Below are positions 529 to 14,230 of a stretch of 64,000 bases of DNA, in pieces. A model generated the notes under the pieces. The model was not told the origin of the DNA. It ran no database searches and was given only the letters and a program-made list of their open reading frames with translations. This DNA is from Escherichia phage OSYSP. The stretch's first letter is position 1, and each line of letters starts with the position of its first letter. The stretch lies in the sequence record MF402939, one strand, 5' to 3'. The translations under genes and the position numbers were made by a program.

Positions 529-898
529 TAGATCTCCCTGATGTTAGAATTTGGCTCAGCTTTTTGTTAACCCAGAAGCAAGATAAAAACTGGAAGGCAG
601 GCTTGCTTATTATCTAATCACTAGATACTGTTGGGGGTGCTAGCATTCCGGTGAGATTGATGGTCTCGATTAGATAAATAAGCACTGGAACTTTGATTTT
701 AACGTTGCGATCTTCCAGGTCTGTTGCAACTACGTGATTGCTCACGCTAAGACAATGGCTATCTAAAGTCTTAGCTTCTACATTTATACTCCTGGGTAGC
801 ATGGAGTTGCAGTCTACTTCCTGCTGTCACGCCCGGCCATTTATAGAATGTGGACTCTCTTCTCAGCAGGATCTGGTACAATGACCTGATCCTCTGTT

Positions 899-2143: not shown

Positions 2144-2156
2144 ATAATTCTTTACT

Positions 2157-2351
2157 CTACGGAAATAGAGTAACTGGCTCAGGTTCTTCAAGGCGCTTAC
2201 CTTCATGATCTACTCGAATGACTCCGCATCCTTCGCAAACCACAACTGCACCATAACCTTCTTTGACTTCGGCTTCTGTAATCAGACCAGCTAAGTCACC
2301 AGTATCTTTACCCCACATATCAATGGAGCATTGTTTGCAGAAATCAGCCAT
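2157..2351 (-). CDS. small zinc-ribbon-like protein (64 aa, CxxC...CxxC)
   Basis: ORF track; two CxxC pairs; AGGA upstream. Confidence 0.55.
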   Translation of the reverse strand: MADFCKQCSIDMWGKDTGDLAGLITEAEVKEGYGAVVVCEGCGVIRVDHEGKRLEEPEPVTLFP

Positions 2352-2376
2352 ATTTTATTTCCTATTTAAGTTAATT

Positions 2377-2453
2377 TGGGGTGGCTAGTGGAATTCGAAT
2401 CCACATAGGCCTGATTCACAATCAGGATCATTAACCAATTATGATATAGCCAC
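2377..2453 (-). tRNA. tRNA-His (anticodon GTG)
   Basis: Acceptor GTGGCTA/TAGCCAC, anticodon arm CCTGA-TTGTGAA-TCAGG, T-arm GTGGA-TTCGAAT-TCCAC, discriminator C, CCA encoded. Confidence 0.7.
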
Positions 2454-2820
2454 AATTGAAAACTCGCAGGGTTAGCGAAACCATCCTCAATTAGCATGTT
2501 CTAGAATACTAATCAAGTTATCTCCTATTGCACGCAGCTCAAGACGAGTACGAATTTTCAATTGTGGCGGCTCTCAGAAACTCTTCTATTCTAGCCTCAG
2601 AAGCTTACCCCCGAACGCATGTCGGGAAAGTCTTTCCAAGCGCATCAAATAGCACCGTTACACTTTGAGCCATTGATGTATCAAGGAATAGAAGGACTTG
2701 AACCTTCATGAGTTAGACCATTTAACTCAACCGCTTTTAAGGTATATTTCTAGGAGTGGATGTTCCTAGTAAACCTATTGGGCAGTCCCGTCTACCAATT
2801 CCGGCATATTCCAAGAATTT

Positions 2821-3003
2821 TTATAAACCAGCGGAAGCCTCATTTAAAGCATCAACAATAGCCTGTTGTTGAGTCCATCCTCTACCAGTAGAATTAACGT
2901 GTGGAAGATATACTTCCCAATAACCGTCTTCTAGTAAGGTTATTTGTGCACTAAACTCTGTGCCATCAGTTAGTGTAACCTTCACAGTTTTCGTTAAAGA
3001 CAT
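2821..3003 (-). CDS. hypothetical protein (60 aa)
   Basis: ORF track only; weak SD. Confidence 0.4.
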   Translation of the reverse strand: MSLTKTVKVTLTDGTEFSAQITLLEDGYWEVYLPHVNSTGRGWTQQQAIVDALNEASAGL

Positions 3004-3019
3004 ATATTACCCTATAAGT

Positions 3020-3109
3020 TGGCAGAAGATAATGGAGTCGAACCATCACCGTATCACTACAGCGGGCTGGTTTTCAAGACCAGTTACGTACCACTACGTC
3101 CTATCTTCT
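3020..3109 (-). tRNA. tRNA-Ser (anticodon TGA), type II
   Basis: Acceptor AGAAGAT/ATCTTCT, anticodon arm CTGGT-CTTGAAA-ACCAG, long variable arm, CCA encoded. Confidence 0.6.
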
Positions 3110-3122
3110 AGTATTTATTATA

Positions 3123-3489: not shown

Positions 3490-3580
3490 TGGCGGAAGAG
3501 GAGAGATTTGAACTCTCAAGCCGTTTTACCAGTCAGCCACTTTCCAAGCGGTTTTCGTCGCCAATTCGATTTGCTCTTCC
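3490..3580 (-). tRNA. tRNA-Ser (anticodon GGA), type II
   Basis: Acceptor GGAAGAG/CTCTTCC, T-arm GAGAG-TTCAAAT-CTCTC, anticodon loop TTGGAAA with 4-bp stem, long variable arm, CCA encoded. Confidence 0.5.
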
Positions 3581-3692
3581 AATAATAAGATGATGCCTCT
3601 ATCACACCAGGCAGTTACGCCTCGCTGGGATTCGAACCCATTAAAACAGCTCAACCGAGATAGTAGGTTTAATTTACTCTGACCATCAAATT

Positions 3693-3769
3693 TGGTGCGT
3701 GACAAGGGATTCGAACCCTCAAAACCCGACTTCTAAGGACGGTATGTATGCCAATTCCATCAATCACGC
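3693..3769 (-). tRNA. tRNA, anticodon TAG (Leu CUA reader?) with short variable arm
   Basis: Acceptor GCGTGAT/GTCACGC, anticodon arm CCGTC-CTTAGAA-GTCGG, T-arm GAGGG-TTCGAAT-CCCTT, discriminator A, CCA encoded; 77 nt, not the type II length expected for Leu. Confidence 0.45.
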
Positions 3770-3853: not shown

Positions 3854-4092
3854 AAATTCTTTAGTTTACTAAGGCTATTAGCTCGGCGTAACTACAGCAC
3901 CTTCGCTTCGAGCGGAAGGAACCGCGTCATCTCGCAAACCCGATACACTATTCAGTTGCCGTTGAATCTAGTGGACTAATCTAGAACTTCTCCCGAATCG
4001 TAGGGATCGTGCTTTTTGGCAGCCAGTCCTAGGTCGAGCTAATACCTTAGTGAACTATGATGGGGATTTCTCCCCTATCAATTAATATAAAT

Positions 4093-8163: not shown

Positions 8164-8234
8164 TGGCAGGGGTAAAGGTATTCGAAACCTTTTCATGGGT
8201 TTTGGAGGCCCATTTGCAACCTATGCGTACCCCA
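8164..8234 (-). tRNA. tRNA-Trp (anticodon CCA), compact D-arm
   Basis: T-arm AAGGT-TTCGAAT-ACCTT, anticodon arm TGGGC-CTCCAAA-ACCCA, 3' TACCCCT-G-CCA; T1-T72 mismatch. Confidence 0.45.
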
Positions 8235-9290: not shown

Positions 9291-9367
9291 TGGTAGGGGT
9301 GGTGGGATTCGAACCCACAAAACCTGAATTTTAAGTCCAGTACCTATGCCAATTCGATTACACCCCC
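9291..9367 (-). tRNA. tRNA, anticodon TAA (Leu UUA reader?) with short variable arm
   Basis: Acceptor GGGGGTG/CACCCCT, anticodon arm CTGGA-CTTAAAA-TTCAG, T-arm GTGGG-TTCGAAT-CCCAC, discriminator A, CCA encoded; 77 nt. Confidence 0.45.
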
Positions 9368-9873: not shown

Positions 9874-9951
9874 TGGTGGCTCCCCGAGGATTCGAACCTA
9901 CGTACCTTCCGGTTATGAGCCGGGTGCTCATACCATATGAGCTTGAGAACC
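9874..9951 (-). tRNA. tRNA, anticodon CAT, initiator-like anticodon arm
   Basis: Acceptor GGTTCTC/GGGAGCC, anticodon arm CCGG-CTCATAA-CCGG followed by GAAGG as in initiator tRNA; T-stem imperfect; CCA encoded. Confidence 0.45.
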
Positions 9952-14152: not shown

Positions 14153-14230
14153 CTTACCGACCGTAGGATTCGAACCTACATCTTCCACCAGTTACGGCTT
14201 GATAATACCAATTATACTAGGACGGCAGTG
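14153..14230 (-). tRNA. tRNA-like element, non-canonical (no foldable anticodon stem)
   Basis: T-arm GTAGG-TTCGAAT-CCTAC, D-loop-like AATTGGTA, acceptor GCCGTCC/GGTCGGT with one mismatch; no anticodon arm can be formed. Confidence 0.3.

What the first reader, a model, noticed from the sequence alone, without database searches (positions are those of the whole stretch)
2461..2820. 360-bp ORF-free stretch with a T-arm-like motif but no canonical tRNA
Between tRNA-His and CDS 2821-3003 the sequence contains GAAGG-TTCAAGT-CCTTC (T-arm-like) and a D-arm-like GAGTTAAATGGTCTAACTC hairpin, but no acceptor stem with 7 paired bases could be found. It may be a degenerate tRNA, a tRNA-like sRNA or a processing signal.
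Basis: seen in the sequence. Interest (0 to 1): 0.35.

Follow-up and report, generated by a model that had tools for sequence, protein, structure and literature searches.

The report
Known T5 tRNA-like stable RNA genes
The "empty" 360 bases next to tRNA-His in this T5-like phage hold three small non-coding RNA genes that the phage T5 GenBank record already annotates (RNA1, RNAI, RNAIII; function unknown), and the tRNA-like motifs belong to RNA1, a leucine-tRNA look-alike with a greatly lengthened anticodon arm that cannot read codons.

Summary
The motifs are real, and the stretch has no ORF longer than 46 aa. It is neither spacer nor a decayed tRNA. The window is a Tequintavirus, 100% identical to phage IrisVonRoten here.

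The T5 st0 record annotates the orthologous gap as three minus-strand misc_RNAs. RNA1 (window 2672-2815) is 95% identical to T5, RNAI (2565-2671) 99% and RNAIII (2455-2560) 100%.

Its "D-arm-like" hairpin is a class-II variable arm. The true D-arm and the acceptor 5' strand lie about 100-120 nt upstream, which is why no acceptor stem was found.

RNA1 is a 131-nt tRNA-Leu-shaped RNA. A 47-nt two-helix extension with a nearly invariant 8-nt loop replaces its anticodon loop.
- Nineteen distinct homologues from three phage groups give 95% pairing.
- 14 of 36 pairs show compensatory changes (0 of 500 shuffles reach this).
- The "UAA anticodon" is not conserved, no CCA is encoded, and the terminal helix is closed by leader-trailer pairing, so it is not a decoding tRNA.
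Rfam's tRNA model scores it below threshold.

Function remains unknown. A trans-acting tRNA mimic is the best guess. The feature is already known, so interest is modest.

The parts
2672..2815 (-). RNA1 gene, drawn with the boundaries of the T5 misc_RNA 'rna1' (144 nt).
   Evidence: T5 st0 record AY692264 annotates misc_RNA RNA1 at the orthologous place. The two are 137/144 identical. My covariance model R1 scores 171 bits at 2672-2817.
2683..2813 (-). tRNA-shaped core of RNA1: a class-II tRNA-Leu-like cloverleaf, 131 nt.
   Evidence: ARAGORN -i calls tRNA-Leu(taa), 91 nt plus a 40-nt 'intron'. RNAalifold recovers the same architecture independently. 95% of cells are paired and 14 pairs show double changes. 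MFE is -37.5 kcal/mol, z = -2.1.
2807..2813 (-). Acceptor-helix 5' strand, TGGAATA. It pairs with 2684-2690; position 1:72 is U.U.
   Evidence: Pairs 6-134 to 11-129 of alignment A3 carry compensatory changes: GGAATA/TATTCC, GAAGTA/TGCTTC, ATGCCG/CGGGGT.
2788..2804 (-). D-arm, CCG-GAATTGGTAGA-CGG, with A14, A15, G18G19, A20a and A21.
   Evidence: The columns are invariant in A3. The arm is nearly identical to the E. coli tRNA-Leu D-arm in the R1 alignment.
2735..2781 (-). 47-nt extension that replaces the 7-nt anticodon loop. Inner helix 1 is AGGT 2776-2773 with ACCT 2743-2740. Inner helix 2 is CTAGGA 2769-2764 with TCCTAG 2755-2750. The terminal loop ACATCCAC is at 2763-2756. ARAGORN's 'intron' is 2742-2781.
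   Evidence: Helices 4 and 5 have 2 and 3 pairs with double changes. The loop segment GAACATCCACTC is identical in all 19 distinct homologues. A search that did not require it found one A-to-G variant, in the T5 wild-type record.
2730..2734 (-). Anticodon-stem 3' strand, GCGGT. It pairs with ACTGC at 2786-2782.
   Evidence: 3 of 5 pairs show compensatory changes (ACTGC/GCGGT to GCTTC/GAGGC) and 98.9% of cells are paired.
2710..2728 (-). Long variable arm: stem GAGTTA/TAACTC with loop AATGGTC.
   Evidence: 100% paired. Pair 94-106 occurs as A-U, U-A and C-G. The loop is invariant, including in a scan that did not require it.
2691..2707 (-). T-arm, GAAGG-TTCAAGT-CCTTC.
   Evidence: 100% paired. 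T54, T55, C56 and A58 are present. The loop is identical to the E. coli tRNA-Leu T-loop.
2684..2690 (-). Acceptor-helix 3' strand, TATTCCT. It is followed by U73 (2683) and no CCA. The trailer bases G2682 and A2681 pair with the leader bases C2815 and T2816.
   Evidence: Pairs 2-138 and 3-137 are paired in all 19 sequences. The U.U/U.U internal loop becomes fully paired in Sugarland-type phages.
2565..2671 (-). RNAI gene (107 nt). It has a 5-bp terminal helix GGCTC/GAGCC followed by GCCA.
   Evidence: T5 misc_RNA rnaI; 106/107 identical. DT57C annotates it as 'stable RNA with unknown functions'. The ends are conserved while the middle module differs between Tequintavirus and Epseptimavirus.
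2455..2560 (-). RNAIII gene (106 nt). It has an 11-12-bp terminal helix TGAAAATTCGT/GCGAGTTTTCA and a hairpin with loop TTCGCTA. Its 3' end abuts tRNA-His.
   Evidence: T5 misc_RNA rnaIII; 106/106 identical. The terminal helix keeps pairing through changes on both sides in the 134-nt variant.
2377..2453 (-). tRNA-His(GUG): the downstream neighbour, given as context.

Best explanation
The gap holds three tandem non-coding RNA genes on the minus strand, orthologous to the T5 RNAs RNA1, RNAI and RNAIII. They lie inside the polycistronic tRNA/small-ORF transcription unit, in the order CDS, RNA1, RNAI, RNAIII, tRNA-His.

- It keeps the acceptor, D, variable and T arms and all the elbow nucleotides.
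- Its anticodon loop has been turned into a roughly 10-bp longer rod ending in a nearly invariant 8-nt loop.
- Its terminal helix is closed by leader-trailer pairing.
- It encodes neither CCA nor a conserved anticodon.

Shown: orthology, structure, covariation, tRNA-Leu ancestry, loss of the decoding features.

Inferred:
- It is cut out of the precursor by the host tRNA-processing machinery and accumulates as a stable RNA.
- It acts in trans through its tRNA elbow and the two invariant loops as a binding surface or decoy for a tRNA-recognising factor. The factor could be LeuRS, another host tRNA-binding enzyme, or a tRNA-targeting defence nuclease.

The confidence figure refers to 'structured, non-decoding tRNA-like stable-RNA genes, orthologues of the T5 RNAs'. 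The trans-acting decoy step alone I would put at about 0.3.
For: Orthology:
- The window is 100% identical to Tequintavirus IrisVonRoten over 2350-3120.
- The T5 st0 record annotates RNAIII, RNAI and RNA1 in exactly this gap. Identities are 100%, 99.1% and 95.1%.
- The DT57C record labels RNAI and RNAIII 'stable RNA with unknown functions'.

Structure of RNA1:
- ARAGORN -i gives a class-II cloverleaf.
- RNAalifold finds the same helices on its own.
- On 19 distinct sequences, 95% of cells are paired, 14 of 36 pairs have changes on both sides, and 0 of 500 shuffles reach the observed values. Slid controls pair at 37-50%.
- The alternative short acceptor used by the Rfam hit is only 53% paired.

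tRNA-Leu ancestry:
- After itself, model R1 scores E. coli tRNA-Leu(CAG) 45.2 bits, T5 tRNA-Leu 40.9, E. coli tRNA-Leu(UAA) 38.0 and the window's tRNA-Leu(UAA) 33.9. Every other tRNA scores 22 bits or less.

Not decoding:
- CTTAAAA becomes CTCATAAA, CCGAAAAC or TCGACGG in relatives.
- Position 73 is U, there is no CCA, and the leader and trailer pair with each other.
- A canonical tRNA-Leu(UAA) is present at 9291-9367.

An independent functional unit:
- RNA1 alone is kept in Klebsiella Sugarland-type phages, in a different neighbourhood.
- DT57C keeps RNAI and RNAIII without RNA1.

Possible LeuRS surface:
- The hinge determinants listed for E. coli tRNA-Leu (A15-U48, G18G19, A20a; PMC9976931) are invariant in RNA1.
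Against: - 'RNA1' in the T5 record may be a prediction rather than an observed RNA, and I could not read the primary papers.
- No trans target was found. Complements of the two invariant loops occur in the window no more often than chance.
- RNA1 is dispensable in at least one natural relative, DT57C.
- The effective number of independent sequences is small (1.1 in the model). Many compensatory cells are inherited from a few events, and the Sugarland-type evidence rests on two related sequences.
Confidence: 0.8

Rival explanations
1. RNA1 is a functional tRNA-Leu(UAA) gene interrupted by a 40-nt intron. The intron is removed to give a 91-nt decoding tRNA.
For: - ARAGORN -i reports exactly this.
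- The JLBYU40 GenBank record annotates the orthologue as tRNA-Leu(taa), 134 nt.
- The loop remnant CTTAAAA matches tRNA-Leu(UAA) loops.
- Model R1's nearest relatives are tRNA-Leu genes.
Against: - The 'anticodon' is not conserved in Epseptimavirus, Sugarlandvirus or even other Tequintavirus clades.
- The inserted segment carries covarying helices and a nearly invariant loop, so it is selected as part of the RNA.
- The insertion sits at position 31/32, not at a known intron site. At 40 nt it is far too short for a group I intron, and Rfam finds none.
- From general knowledge, E. coli has no tRNA-splicing endonuclease.
- There is no CCA, position 73 is U rather than the A73 of tRNA-Leu, 1:72 is U.U, and the terminal helix is closed.
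- A canonical tRNA-Leu(UAA) already exists at 9291-9367.
Confidence: 0.04
2. The three elements are purely cis-acting punctuation. They are tRNA-like or hairpin structures that direct RNase P, RNase E or RNase III cuts, separating the upstream mRNA from tRNA-His and stabilising the ends. They have no trans function.
For: - They sit between a CDS and a tRNA inside a polycistronic unit.
- All three have closed terminal helices.
- The motif CAAT precedes each annotated 5' end.
- The RNAIII slot holds unrelated inserts of 29, 64, 107 or 134 nt that share only the closing stem.
Against: - Punctuation would not require the invariant 8-nt and 7-nt loops of RNA1, its intact elbow nucleotides, or a covarying 47-nt extension.
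- RNA1 is conserved in other neighbourhoods.
- RNAI and RNAIII are annotated as stable RNAs, so they accumulate rather than being discarded.
- This rival is more plausible for RNAIII than for RNA1.
Confidence: 0.13
3. The region is a decaying tRNA pseudogene plus unconstrained spacer.
For: - The Rfam tRNA model scores 23.9 bits, below its gathering score of 29.
- Default ARAGORN finds nothing.
- Most GenBank records leave the gap unannotated.
Against: - 498 phage records hold similar DNA, and 260 of them cover at least 80% of the stretch.
- RNAIII is 100% and RNAI 99% identical to T5.
- RNA1 keeps 95% pairing with 14 compensated pairs across three phage groups.
Confidence: 0.01
4. The stretch encodes one or more small proteins, as some records annotate (for example bas26_0126 in GreteKellenberger and gp157 in Sugarland).
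For: Some annotation pipelines-60-aa hypothetical proteins over parts of the region.
Against: - The longest ORF in the window's stretch is 46 aa with a TTG start.
- The called ORFs differ in place and frame between records.
- Single-base indels occur between close relatives (column 84 of A3; the 106-nt RNAI of L025).
- Substitutions follow base-pairing rather than codon positions.
- The curated T5 and DT57C records annotate RNAs here.
Confidence: 0.02

Closest known systems
Bacteriophage T5 misc_RNAs RNA1, RNAI and RNAIII (GenBank AY692264; RNAI and RNAIII also in DT57C, NC_027356)
   Same: Same position between tRNA-His and the small CDS, same order and strand, same lengths (144, 107 and 106 nt). 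Identities are 95%, 99% and 100%. The window's copies are orthologues.
   Different: Nothing of substance: 7, 1 and 0 substitutions. The records give no structure or function. The cloverleaf-with-extension model and its covariation support were worked out here.
Class-II bacterial tRNA-Leu (E. coli leuQPV, leuZ)
   Same: The acceptor, D, anticodon-stem, long variable and T arms are in the same order. The D-arm and T-loop are nearly identical. A15-U48, G18G19 and A20a are kept. It is the best non-self hit of the RNA1 model, at 45.2 and 38.0 bits.
   Different: The anticodon loop is 47 nt instead of 7, with no conserved anticodon. Position 1:72 is U.U, position 73 is U, and no CCA is encoded. The leader and trailer pair. 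The Rfam tRNA score is below threshold.
Intron-containing tRNA-Leu(UAA) of cyanobacteria and plastids (group I intron in the anticodon loop; recalled from general knowledge)
   Same: A tRNA-Leu(UAA)-like gene interrupted in the anticodon loop.
   Different: The insert here is 40 nt, sits at position 31/32 and matches no group I model. It is conserved as structure rather than removed, and the anticodon is not conserved.
Phage T4 'species 1' and 'species 2' stable RNAs encoded in the T4 tRNA gene cluster (recalled from general knowledge, not tested here)
   Same: Small stable RNAs of unknown function, co-transcribed and co-processed with phage tRNAs.
   Different: No sequence relation was tested or is expected. 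This is an analogy of genomic context only.
tRNA-like domains of tmRNA and of YrlA (bacterial Y RNA-like RNA) (recalled from general knowledge)
   Same: An RNA that keeps a tRNA elbow (T-arm plus D-loop) while the anticodon region is replaced by another module.
   Different: ARAGORN -m and Rfam find no tmRNA. There is no reading frame, no Ro-binding helix, no free alanine-accepting CCA end, and the topology differs.

Membership tests
Canonical tRNA (Rfam RF00005) | Covariance-model score at or above the gathering score (29 bits) | tested here: not met
   23.9 bits at 2683-2751. That alignment also uses a wrong 5' acceptor strand, which is only 53% paired across homologues.
Canonical tRNA (Rfam RF00005) | Seven-bp acceptor stem with a free discriminator and a CCA end, encoded or addable | tested here: not met
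   Six Watson-Crick pairs plus U.U at 1:72. No CCA is encoded. The trailer pairs with the leader. Post-transcriptional CCA addition cannot be tested here.
Canonical tRNA (Rfam RF00005) | D-arm, T-arm and elbow nucleotides (U8, A14, G18G19, T54-T55-C56, A58, the 15-48 pair) | tested here: met
   All are invariant in 19 distinct homologues.
Canonical tRNA (Rfam RF00005) | Seven-nt anticodon loop with U33 and a conserved anticodon | tested here: not met
   The loop region is 47 nt. The sequence at the would-be anticodon differs between clades.
T5 RNA1 / RNAI / RNAIII stable-RNA genes | Sequence orthology and synteny with the annotated T5 misc_RNAs | tested here: met
   95.1%, 99.1% and 100% identity, with the same order and flanks.
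T5 RNA1 / RNAI / RNAIII stable-RNA genes | Accumulation as discrete stable RNAs in infected cells | not testable with these tools
   Only the GenBank notes are available ('stable RNA with unknown functions'). The primary papers are not held.
tRNA gene with a group I intron | An intron of roughly 200 nt or more with a group I core, inserted in the anticodon loop | tested here: not met
   The insert is 40 nt. There is no Intron_gpI hit even at E<=10.
tmRNA | tRNA-like domain plus a tag reading frame | tested here: not met
   ARAGORN -m finds none. Rfam tmRNA gives only 10-11-bit fragments elsewhere in the window.

The most novel reading that the evidence does not exclude
RNA1 may be a trans-acting tRNA-Leu mimic.
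- It keeps the LeuRS hinge determinants and the tRNA elbow.
- It presents two nearly invariant loops, on a lengthened anticodon rod and on the variable arm.
- It could use them to sequester or redirect a host tRNA-binding protein: LeuRS, a modification or processing enzyme, or a tRNA-cleaving defence nuclease.

That would make it a phage-encoded RNA decoy of a kind not yet described for T5-like phages, and it would finally give a function to one of the T5 'stable RNAs'.
Probability: 0.2. Interest if true: 0.7.

Novelty: already known. Interest (0 to 1): 0.33.

Why it matters
T5-like phages carry about 25 tRNAs, and recent work shows that some of them counter tRNA-targeting defences. The PARIS paper (PMC11464382) and the BF23 paper (PMC10644984) are examples.

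The same gene cluster also encodes several non-tRNA stable RNAs. Their GenBank annotations give no function, and Rfam has no families for them.

The analysis here gives RNA1 a covariation-supported structure, a tRNA-Leu ancestry and a clear statement that it cannot decode. That turns "unknown stable RNA" into a testable tRNA-mimic hypothesis.

On the practical side:
- Pipelines that allow introns will mis-annotate it as tRNA-Leu(taa).
- Gene callers place spurious small ORFs over it.

Tried and rejected
- **Literature.** Five full-text searches and two look-ups by PubMed id found no accessible paper describing T5 RNA1, RNAI or RNAIII. What is 'known' therefore rests on GenBank annotations.
- **Bacterial genomes.** A scan of 185,579 genomes for the two-loop signature gave 0 hits.
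- **Looser D-arm pattern.** A D-arm plus loop pattern in IMG/VR gave 39 extra loci. None matched model R1, so they are chance matches.
- **Antisense targets.** Complements of the invariant loops occur in the window at chance level.
- **blastn of the 'spliced' 91-nt RNA1 against E. coli genomes.** No match at E<=10, because the shared words are too short for that database size. The relation to tRNA-Leu showed only with the covariance model.
- **The short 69-nt tRNA reading from Rfam.** Rejected, because its acceptor is 53% paired.
- **tmRNA.** None found.
- **Paralogy with other T5 RNAs.** RNA1 has no R1 hit to rna2, RNA2H or RNAIV in the T5 tRNA region.
- **A cloverleaf for RNAI.** No consistent T-arm. 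Only the 5-bp terminal helix plus GCCA and the conserved ends hold up.
- **A kissing contact between the two invariant loops (UGG with CCA).** It would be only 3 bp, and invariance gives no covariation test. The single T5 wild-type variant (CCA to CCG) would keep a wobble pair, but that is one case.

Full report
**What the window is.** The window is a T5-like phage (Demerecviridae, Tequintavirus).
- Bases 2350-3120 are 100% identical to Escherichia phage IrisVonRoten (Bas32).
- 490 phage records match this query.
- All 23 tRNAs that ARAGORN finds lie on the minus strand, interleaved with small ORFs. The finding therefore has to be read on the minus strand, in the order CDS 3003-2821, the gap, tRNA-His 2453-2377.

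**Checking the observation.** Both motifs are present.
- GAAGGTTCAAGTCCTTC lies at 2707..2691.
- GAGTTAAATGGTCTAACTC lies at 2728..2710.
- The gap holds only ORFs of 25-46 aa.
- Default ARAGORN and Rfam at gathering score find nothing there.
- At a permissive threshold the Rfam tRNA model gives 23.9 bits (gathering score 29) at 2683-2751. No other family gives a meaningful hit.

**The gap is already annotated in T5.** The T5 st0 record AY692264 places three misc_RNAs in the orthologous gap between tRNA-His and T5p061:
- RNAIII, 106 nt, abutting tRNA-His;
- RNAI, 107 nt;
- RNA1, 144 nt.

The DT57C record calls RNAI and RNAIII "stable RNA with unknown functions". Transferred to the window:

| RNA | Window coordinates | Identity to T5 |
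|---|---|---|
| RNA1 | 2672-2815 | 137/144 |
| RNAI | 2565-2671 | 106/107 |
| RNAIII | 2455-2560 | 106/106 |

Most other records leave the gap empty or place small hypothetical ORFs over it. One record, JLBYU40, annotates the RNA1 orthologue as a 134-nt tRNA-Leu(taa).

**Anatomy of RNA1.** ARAGORN with introns allowed reproduces the JLBYU40 call at 2683-2813: a 91-nt class-II cloverleaf plus a 40-nt "intron" between nucleotides 31 and 32. It is the only such call in the window. Read 5' to 3' on the minus strand, the elements are:
- acceptor 5' strand TGGAATA (2813-2807);
- U8 and G9;
- D-arm CCG/GAATTGGTAGA/CGG (2804-2788);
- G26;
- stem ACTGC (2786-2782);
- a 47-nt segment (2781-2735);
- stem GCGGT (2734-2730);
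- a long variable arm, GAGTTA/AATGGTC/TAACTC (2728-2710);
- T-arm GAAGG/TTCAAGT/CCTTC (2707-2691);
- acceptor 3' strand TATTCCT (2690-2684);
- U73, with no CCA.

The 47-nt segment is not a loop. It forms two further helices and ends in the 8-nt loop ACATCCAC (2763-2756):
- AGGT (2776-2773) pairs with ACCT (2743-2740);
- CTAGGA (2769-2764) pairs with TCCTAG (2755-2750).

**Comparative test.** I collected homologues in two ways:
- by blastn from GenBank phages: SP3, chee24, AKFV33, GreteKellenberger, phiR2-01, STK8t, and the Klebsiella phages Sugarland and vB_Kpn_3;
- by pattern scans of IMG/VR: 27 loci, all T5-like genomes.

On 19 distinct sequences (alignment A3) the proposed structure performs as follows:
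- 95.0% of cells are paired.
- 14 of 36 pairs have changes on both sides, in 63 cells.
- The covariation score is 0.302 against 0.129 in shuffles, and 0 of 500 shuffles reach it.
- Sliding the partners by 1-3 columns drops pairing to 37-50%.

The compensatory series are explicit:
- acceptor: GGAATA/TATTCC, then GAAGTA/TGCTTC, then ATGCCG/CGGGGT;
- anticodon stem: ACTGC/GCGGT, then GCTTC/GAGGC;
- inner helix 1: AGGT/ACCT, then GAGT/ACTC (extended to CGAGT/ACTCG in that homologue);
- inner helix 2: CTAGGA/TCCTAG, then TAGGGA/TCCCTA, then GCAGA/TCTGC;
- variable arm: GAGTTA/TAACTC, then GAGATA/TATCTC, then GAGCTA/TAGCTC.

RNAalifold finds the same helices without being given the structure; only its D-arm pairing differs. 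The single-sequence MFE fold agrees. The short 69-nt tRNA of the Rfam hit uses AGAAATA as its 5' acceptor strand, and that helix is only 53% paired across homologues, so I reject it.

A caveat applies. The sequences are closely related (effective number 1.1). Cell counts therefore overstate the number of independent events, and the Sugarland-type support rests on two related phages.

**Why RNA1 is not a decoding tRNA.**
- The would-be anticodon loop CTTAAAA is CTCATAAA in the SP3 and AKFV33 clade, CCGAAAAC in Epseptimavirus and Sugarland-type phages, and TCGACGG in L033.
- The inserted segment is under structural selection. Its terminal loop with its closing pairs (GAACATCCACTC) is identical in all homologues. 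The one exception is an A-to-G change in the T5 wild-type record, found by a scan that did not require this loop.
- The variable-arm loop (AAATGGTCTA) is likewise invariant in a scan that did not require it. The 39 additional loci from that scan fail the covariance model and are chance matches.
- Position 1:72 is U.U, position 73 is U (A in Sugarland-type phages), and no CCA is encoded.
- The two leader bases C2815 and T2816 pair with the trailer bases G2682 and A2681 in every sequence. The U.U/U.U internal loop is replaced by standard pairs in Sugarland-type phages, giving a closed 10-11-bp terminal helix.
- The phage has a canonical tRNA-Leu(UAA) at 9291-9367.

**Origin.** A covariance model built from A3 (R1) scores as follows:

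| Target | Bits |
|---|---|
| window RNA1 | 171 |
| E. coli tRNA-Leu(CAG) | 45.2 |
| T5 tRNA-Leu | 40.9 |
| E. coli tRNA-Leu(UAA) | 38.0 |
| window tRNA-Leu(UAA) | 33.9 |
| all other tRNAs | 22 or less |

- The alignment to E. coli tRNA-Leu shows near-identity in the D-arm (CGGAAUUGGUAGACG) and the T-loop (GGUUCAAGUCC).
- RNA1 is therefore a derivative of an enterobacterial-type class-II tRNA-Leu.
- The elements that a review lists as essential for E. coli LeuRS recognition in the hinge are A15-U48, G18G19 and A20a (PMC9976931). All are invariant in RNA1. The same review lists A73 as a determinant, and RNA1 lacks it.
- R1 finds no relation to the other T5 misc_RNAs (rna2, RNA2H, RNAIV).

**RNAI and RNAIII.**
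- RNAI begins GGCTC and ends GAGCC-GCCA: a 5-bp terminal helix with a tRNA-like NCCA tail.
- Its first 20 or so and last 20 or so nucleotides are conserved. Its middle is replaced by an unrelated module in Epseptimavirus, giving 100 nt instead of 107.
- RNAIII has an 11-12-bp terminal helix that keeps pairing through changes on both sides in the 134-nt variant. It also has a hairpin with loop TTCGCTA next to the 3' strand.
- The RNAIII slot holds inserts of 29, 64, 107 or 134 nt in different phages. They share only the closing stem and the flanking CAAT and AAT.
- DT57C has RNAI and RNAIII but not RNA1. Sugarland-type phages have RNA1 only. The three are separable units.

**Distribution.**
- 498 phage records hold similar DNA, and 260 cover at least 80% of the stretch.
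- In IMG/VR the RNA1 signature occurs only in T5-like genomes.
- It occurs in none of 185,579 bacterial and archaeal genomes.

**How it most likely works.**

Shown:
- three structured RNA genes, orthologous to the T5 RNAs;
- RNA1 as a tRNA-Leu-derived mimic that has lost its decoding and acceptor-end features while gaining a conserved extension.

Inferred:
- The RNAs are transcribed with the tRNA cluster. A promoter-like site lies at 3146-3117 upstream of tRNA-Ser, and there is no convincing one inside the gap.
- They are released by the tRNA-processing enzymes. RNAIII's 3' end is the RNase P site of tRNA-His.
- RNA1 acts through its elbow and its two invariant loops on a tRNA-recognising partner.
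- I found no antisense target in the window, so a protein partner seems more likely than base-pairing. I cannot say which partner.
- The main rival is a purely cis role in transcript punctuation, which fits RNAIII better than RNA1.
- The intron-containing tRNA, pseudogene and small-protein readings are each contradicted by several tests, set out under the rival explanations.

**Verdict.**
- The interpretation "tRNA-like sRNA" is right for RNA1.
- The feature is already annotated in T5, although its function is listed there as unknown, it has no Rfam family, and many genomes mis-annotate or omit it.
- Interest is modest. It would rise if RNA1 proved to be a trans-acting tRNA mimic.

Noticed in passing
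window 3490-3580 (-): tRNA-Ser(GGA) is missed by default ARAGORN and by Rfam at gathering score. It is annotated in IrisVonRoten and recovered by ARAGORN at a lowered threshold.
   Followed up: partly
window 3581-3692 (-): An unannotated 112-nt spacer between tRNA-Ser(GGA) and tRNA-Leu(UAG) contains a T-arm-like TGGGTTCGAATCCCA. It may be another tRNA remnant or tRNA-like RNA. Rfam gives only an 11-bit tmRNA fragment there.
   Followed up: no
window about 3854-4045 (-): This is the orthologue of the T5 misc_RNA 'RNA2H' (172 nt), downstream of tRNA-Ala. It looks structured, matches no Rfam family, and is unrelated to RNA1 by the covariance model.
   Followed up: partly
window 529-898 (-): A 370-nt stretch without a convincing ORF lies between CDS 160-528 and tRNA-Met 899-974. 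T5 st0 has only about 14 nt at the corresponding place, so this is an insertion of unknown nature.
   Followed up: no
window 9877-9951, 14155-14226 and 8167-8234 (-): Rfam finds two tRNAs that ARAGORN misses (40.3 and 35.5 bits). It also gives a second sub-threshold tRNA-like hit (23.1 bits) between tRNA-Phe and tRNA-Glu.
   Followed up: no
window 2144-2160, compared with L001 1719-2300 and L004 2401-2982: The window lacks the HNH homing-endonuclease gene that IrisVonRoten and T5 carry overlapping tRNA-Gln. The window is therefore not IrisVonRoten itself, despite 100% identity over 2350-3120.
   Followed up: no
window 2672-2675, 2561-2564, 2455-2458 (-): The tetranucleotide CAAT immediately precedes the annotated 5' ends of RNAI and RNAIII, and lies one base before tRNA-His. 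It is conserved across variants whose inserts differ, so it may be a processing-site motif.
   Followed up: partly
L039 1067-1105 (T5 wild-type record in IMG/VR): The T5 reference sequence has ACATCCGC where T5 st0 and all other homologues have ACATCCAC in the RNA1 terminal loop. This is either a strain difference or a sequencing difference.
   Followed up: no
window 3693-3769 and 9291-9367 (-): The phage's own tRNA-Leu genes are called at 77 nt with only a short variable region, unlike the class-II bacterial tRNA-Leu. RNA1 is the only Leu-like RNA here with a long variable arm.
   Followed up: no
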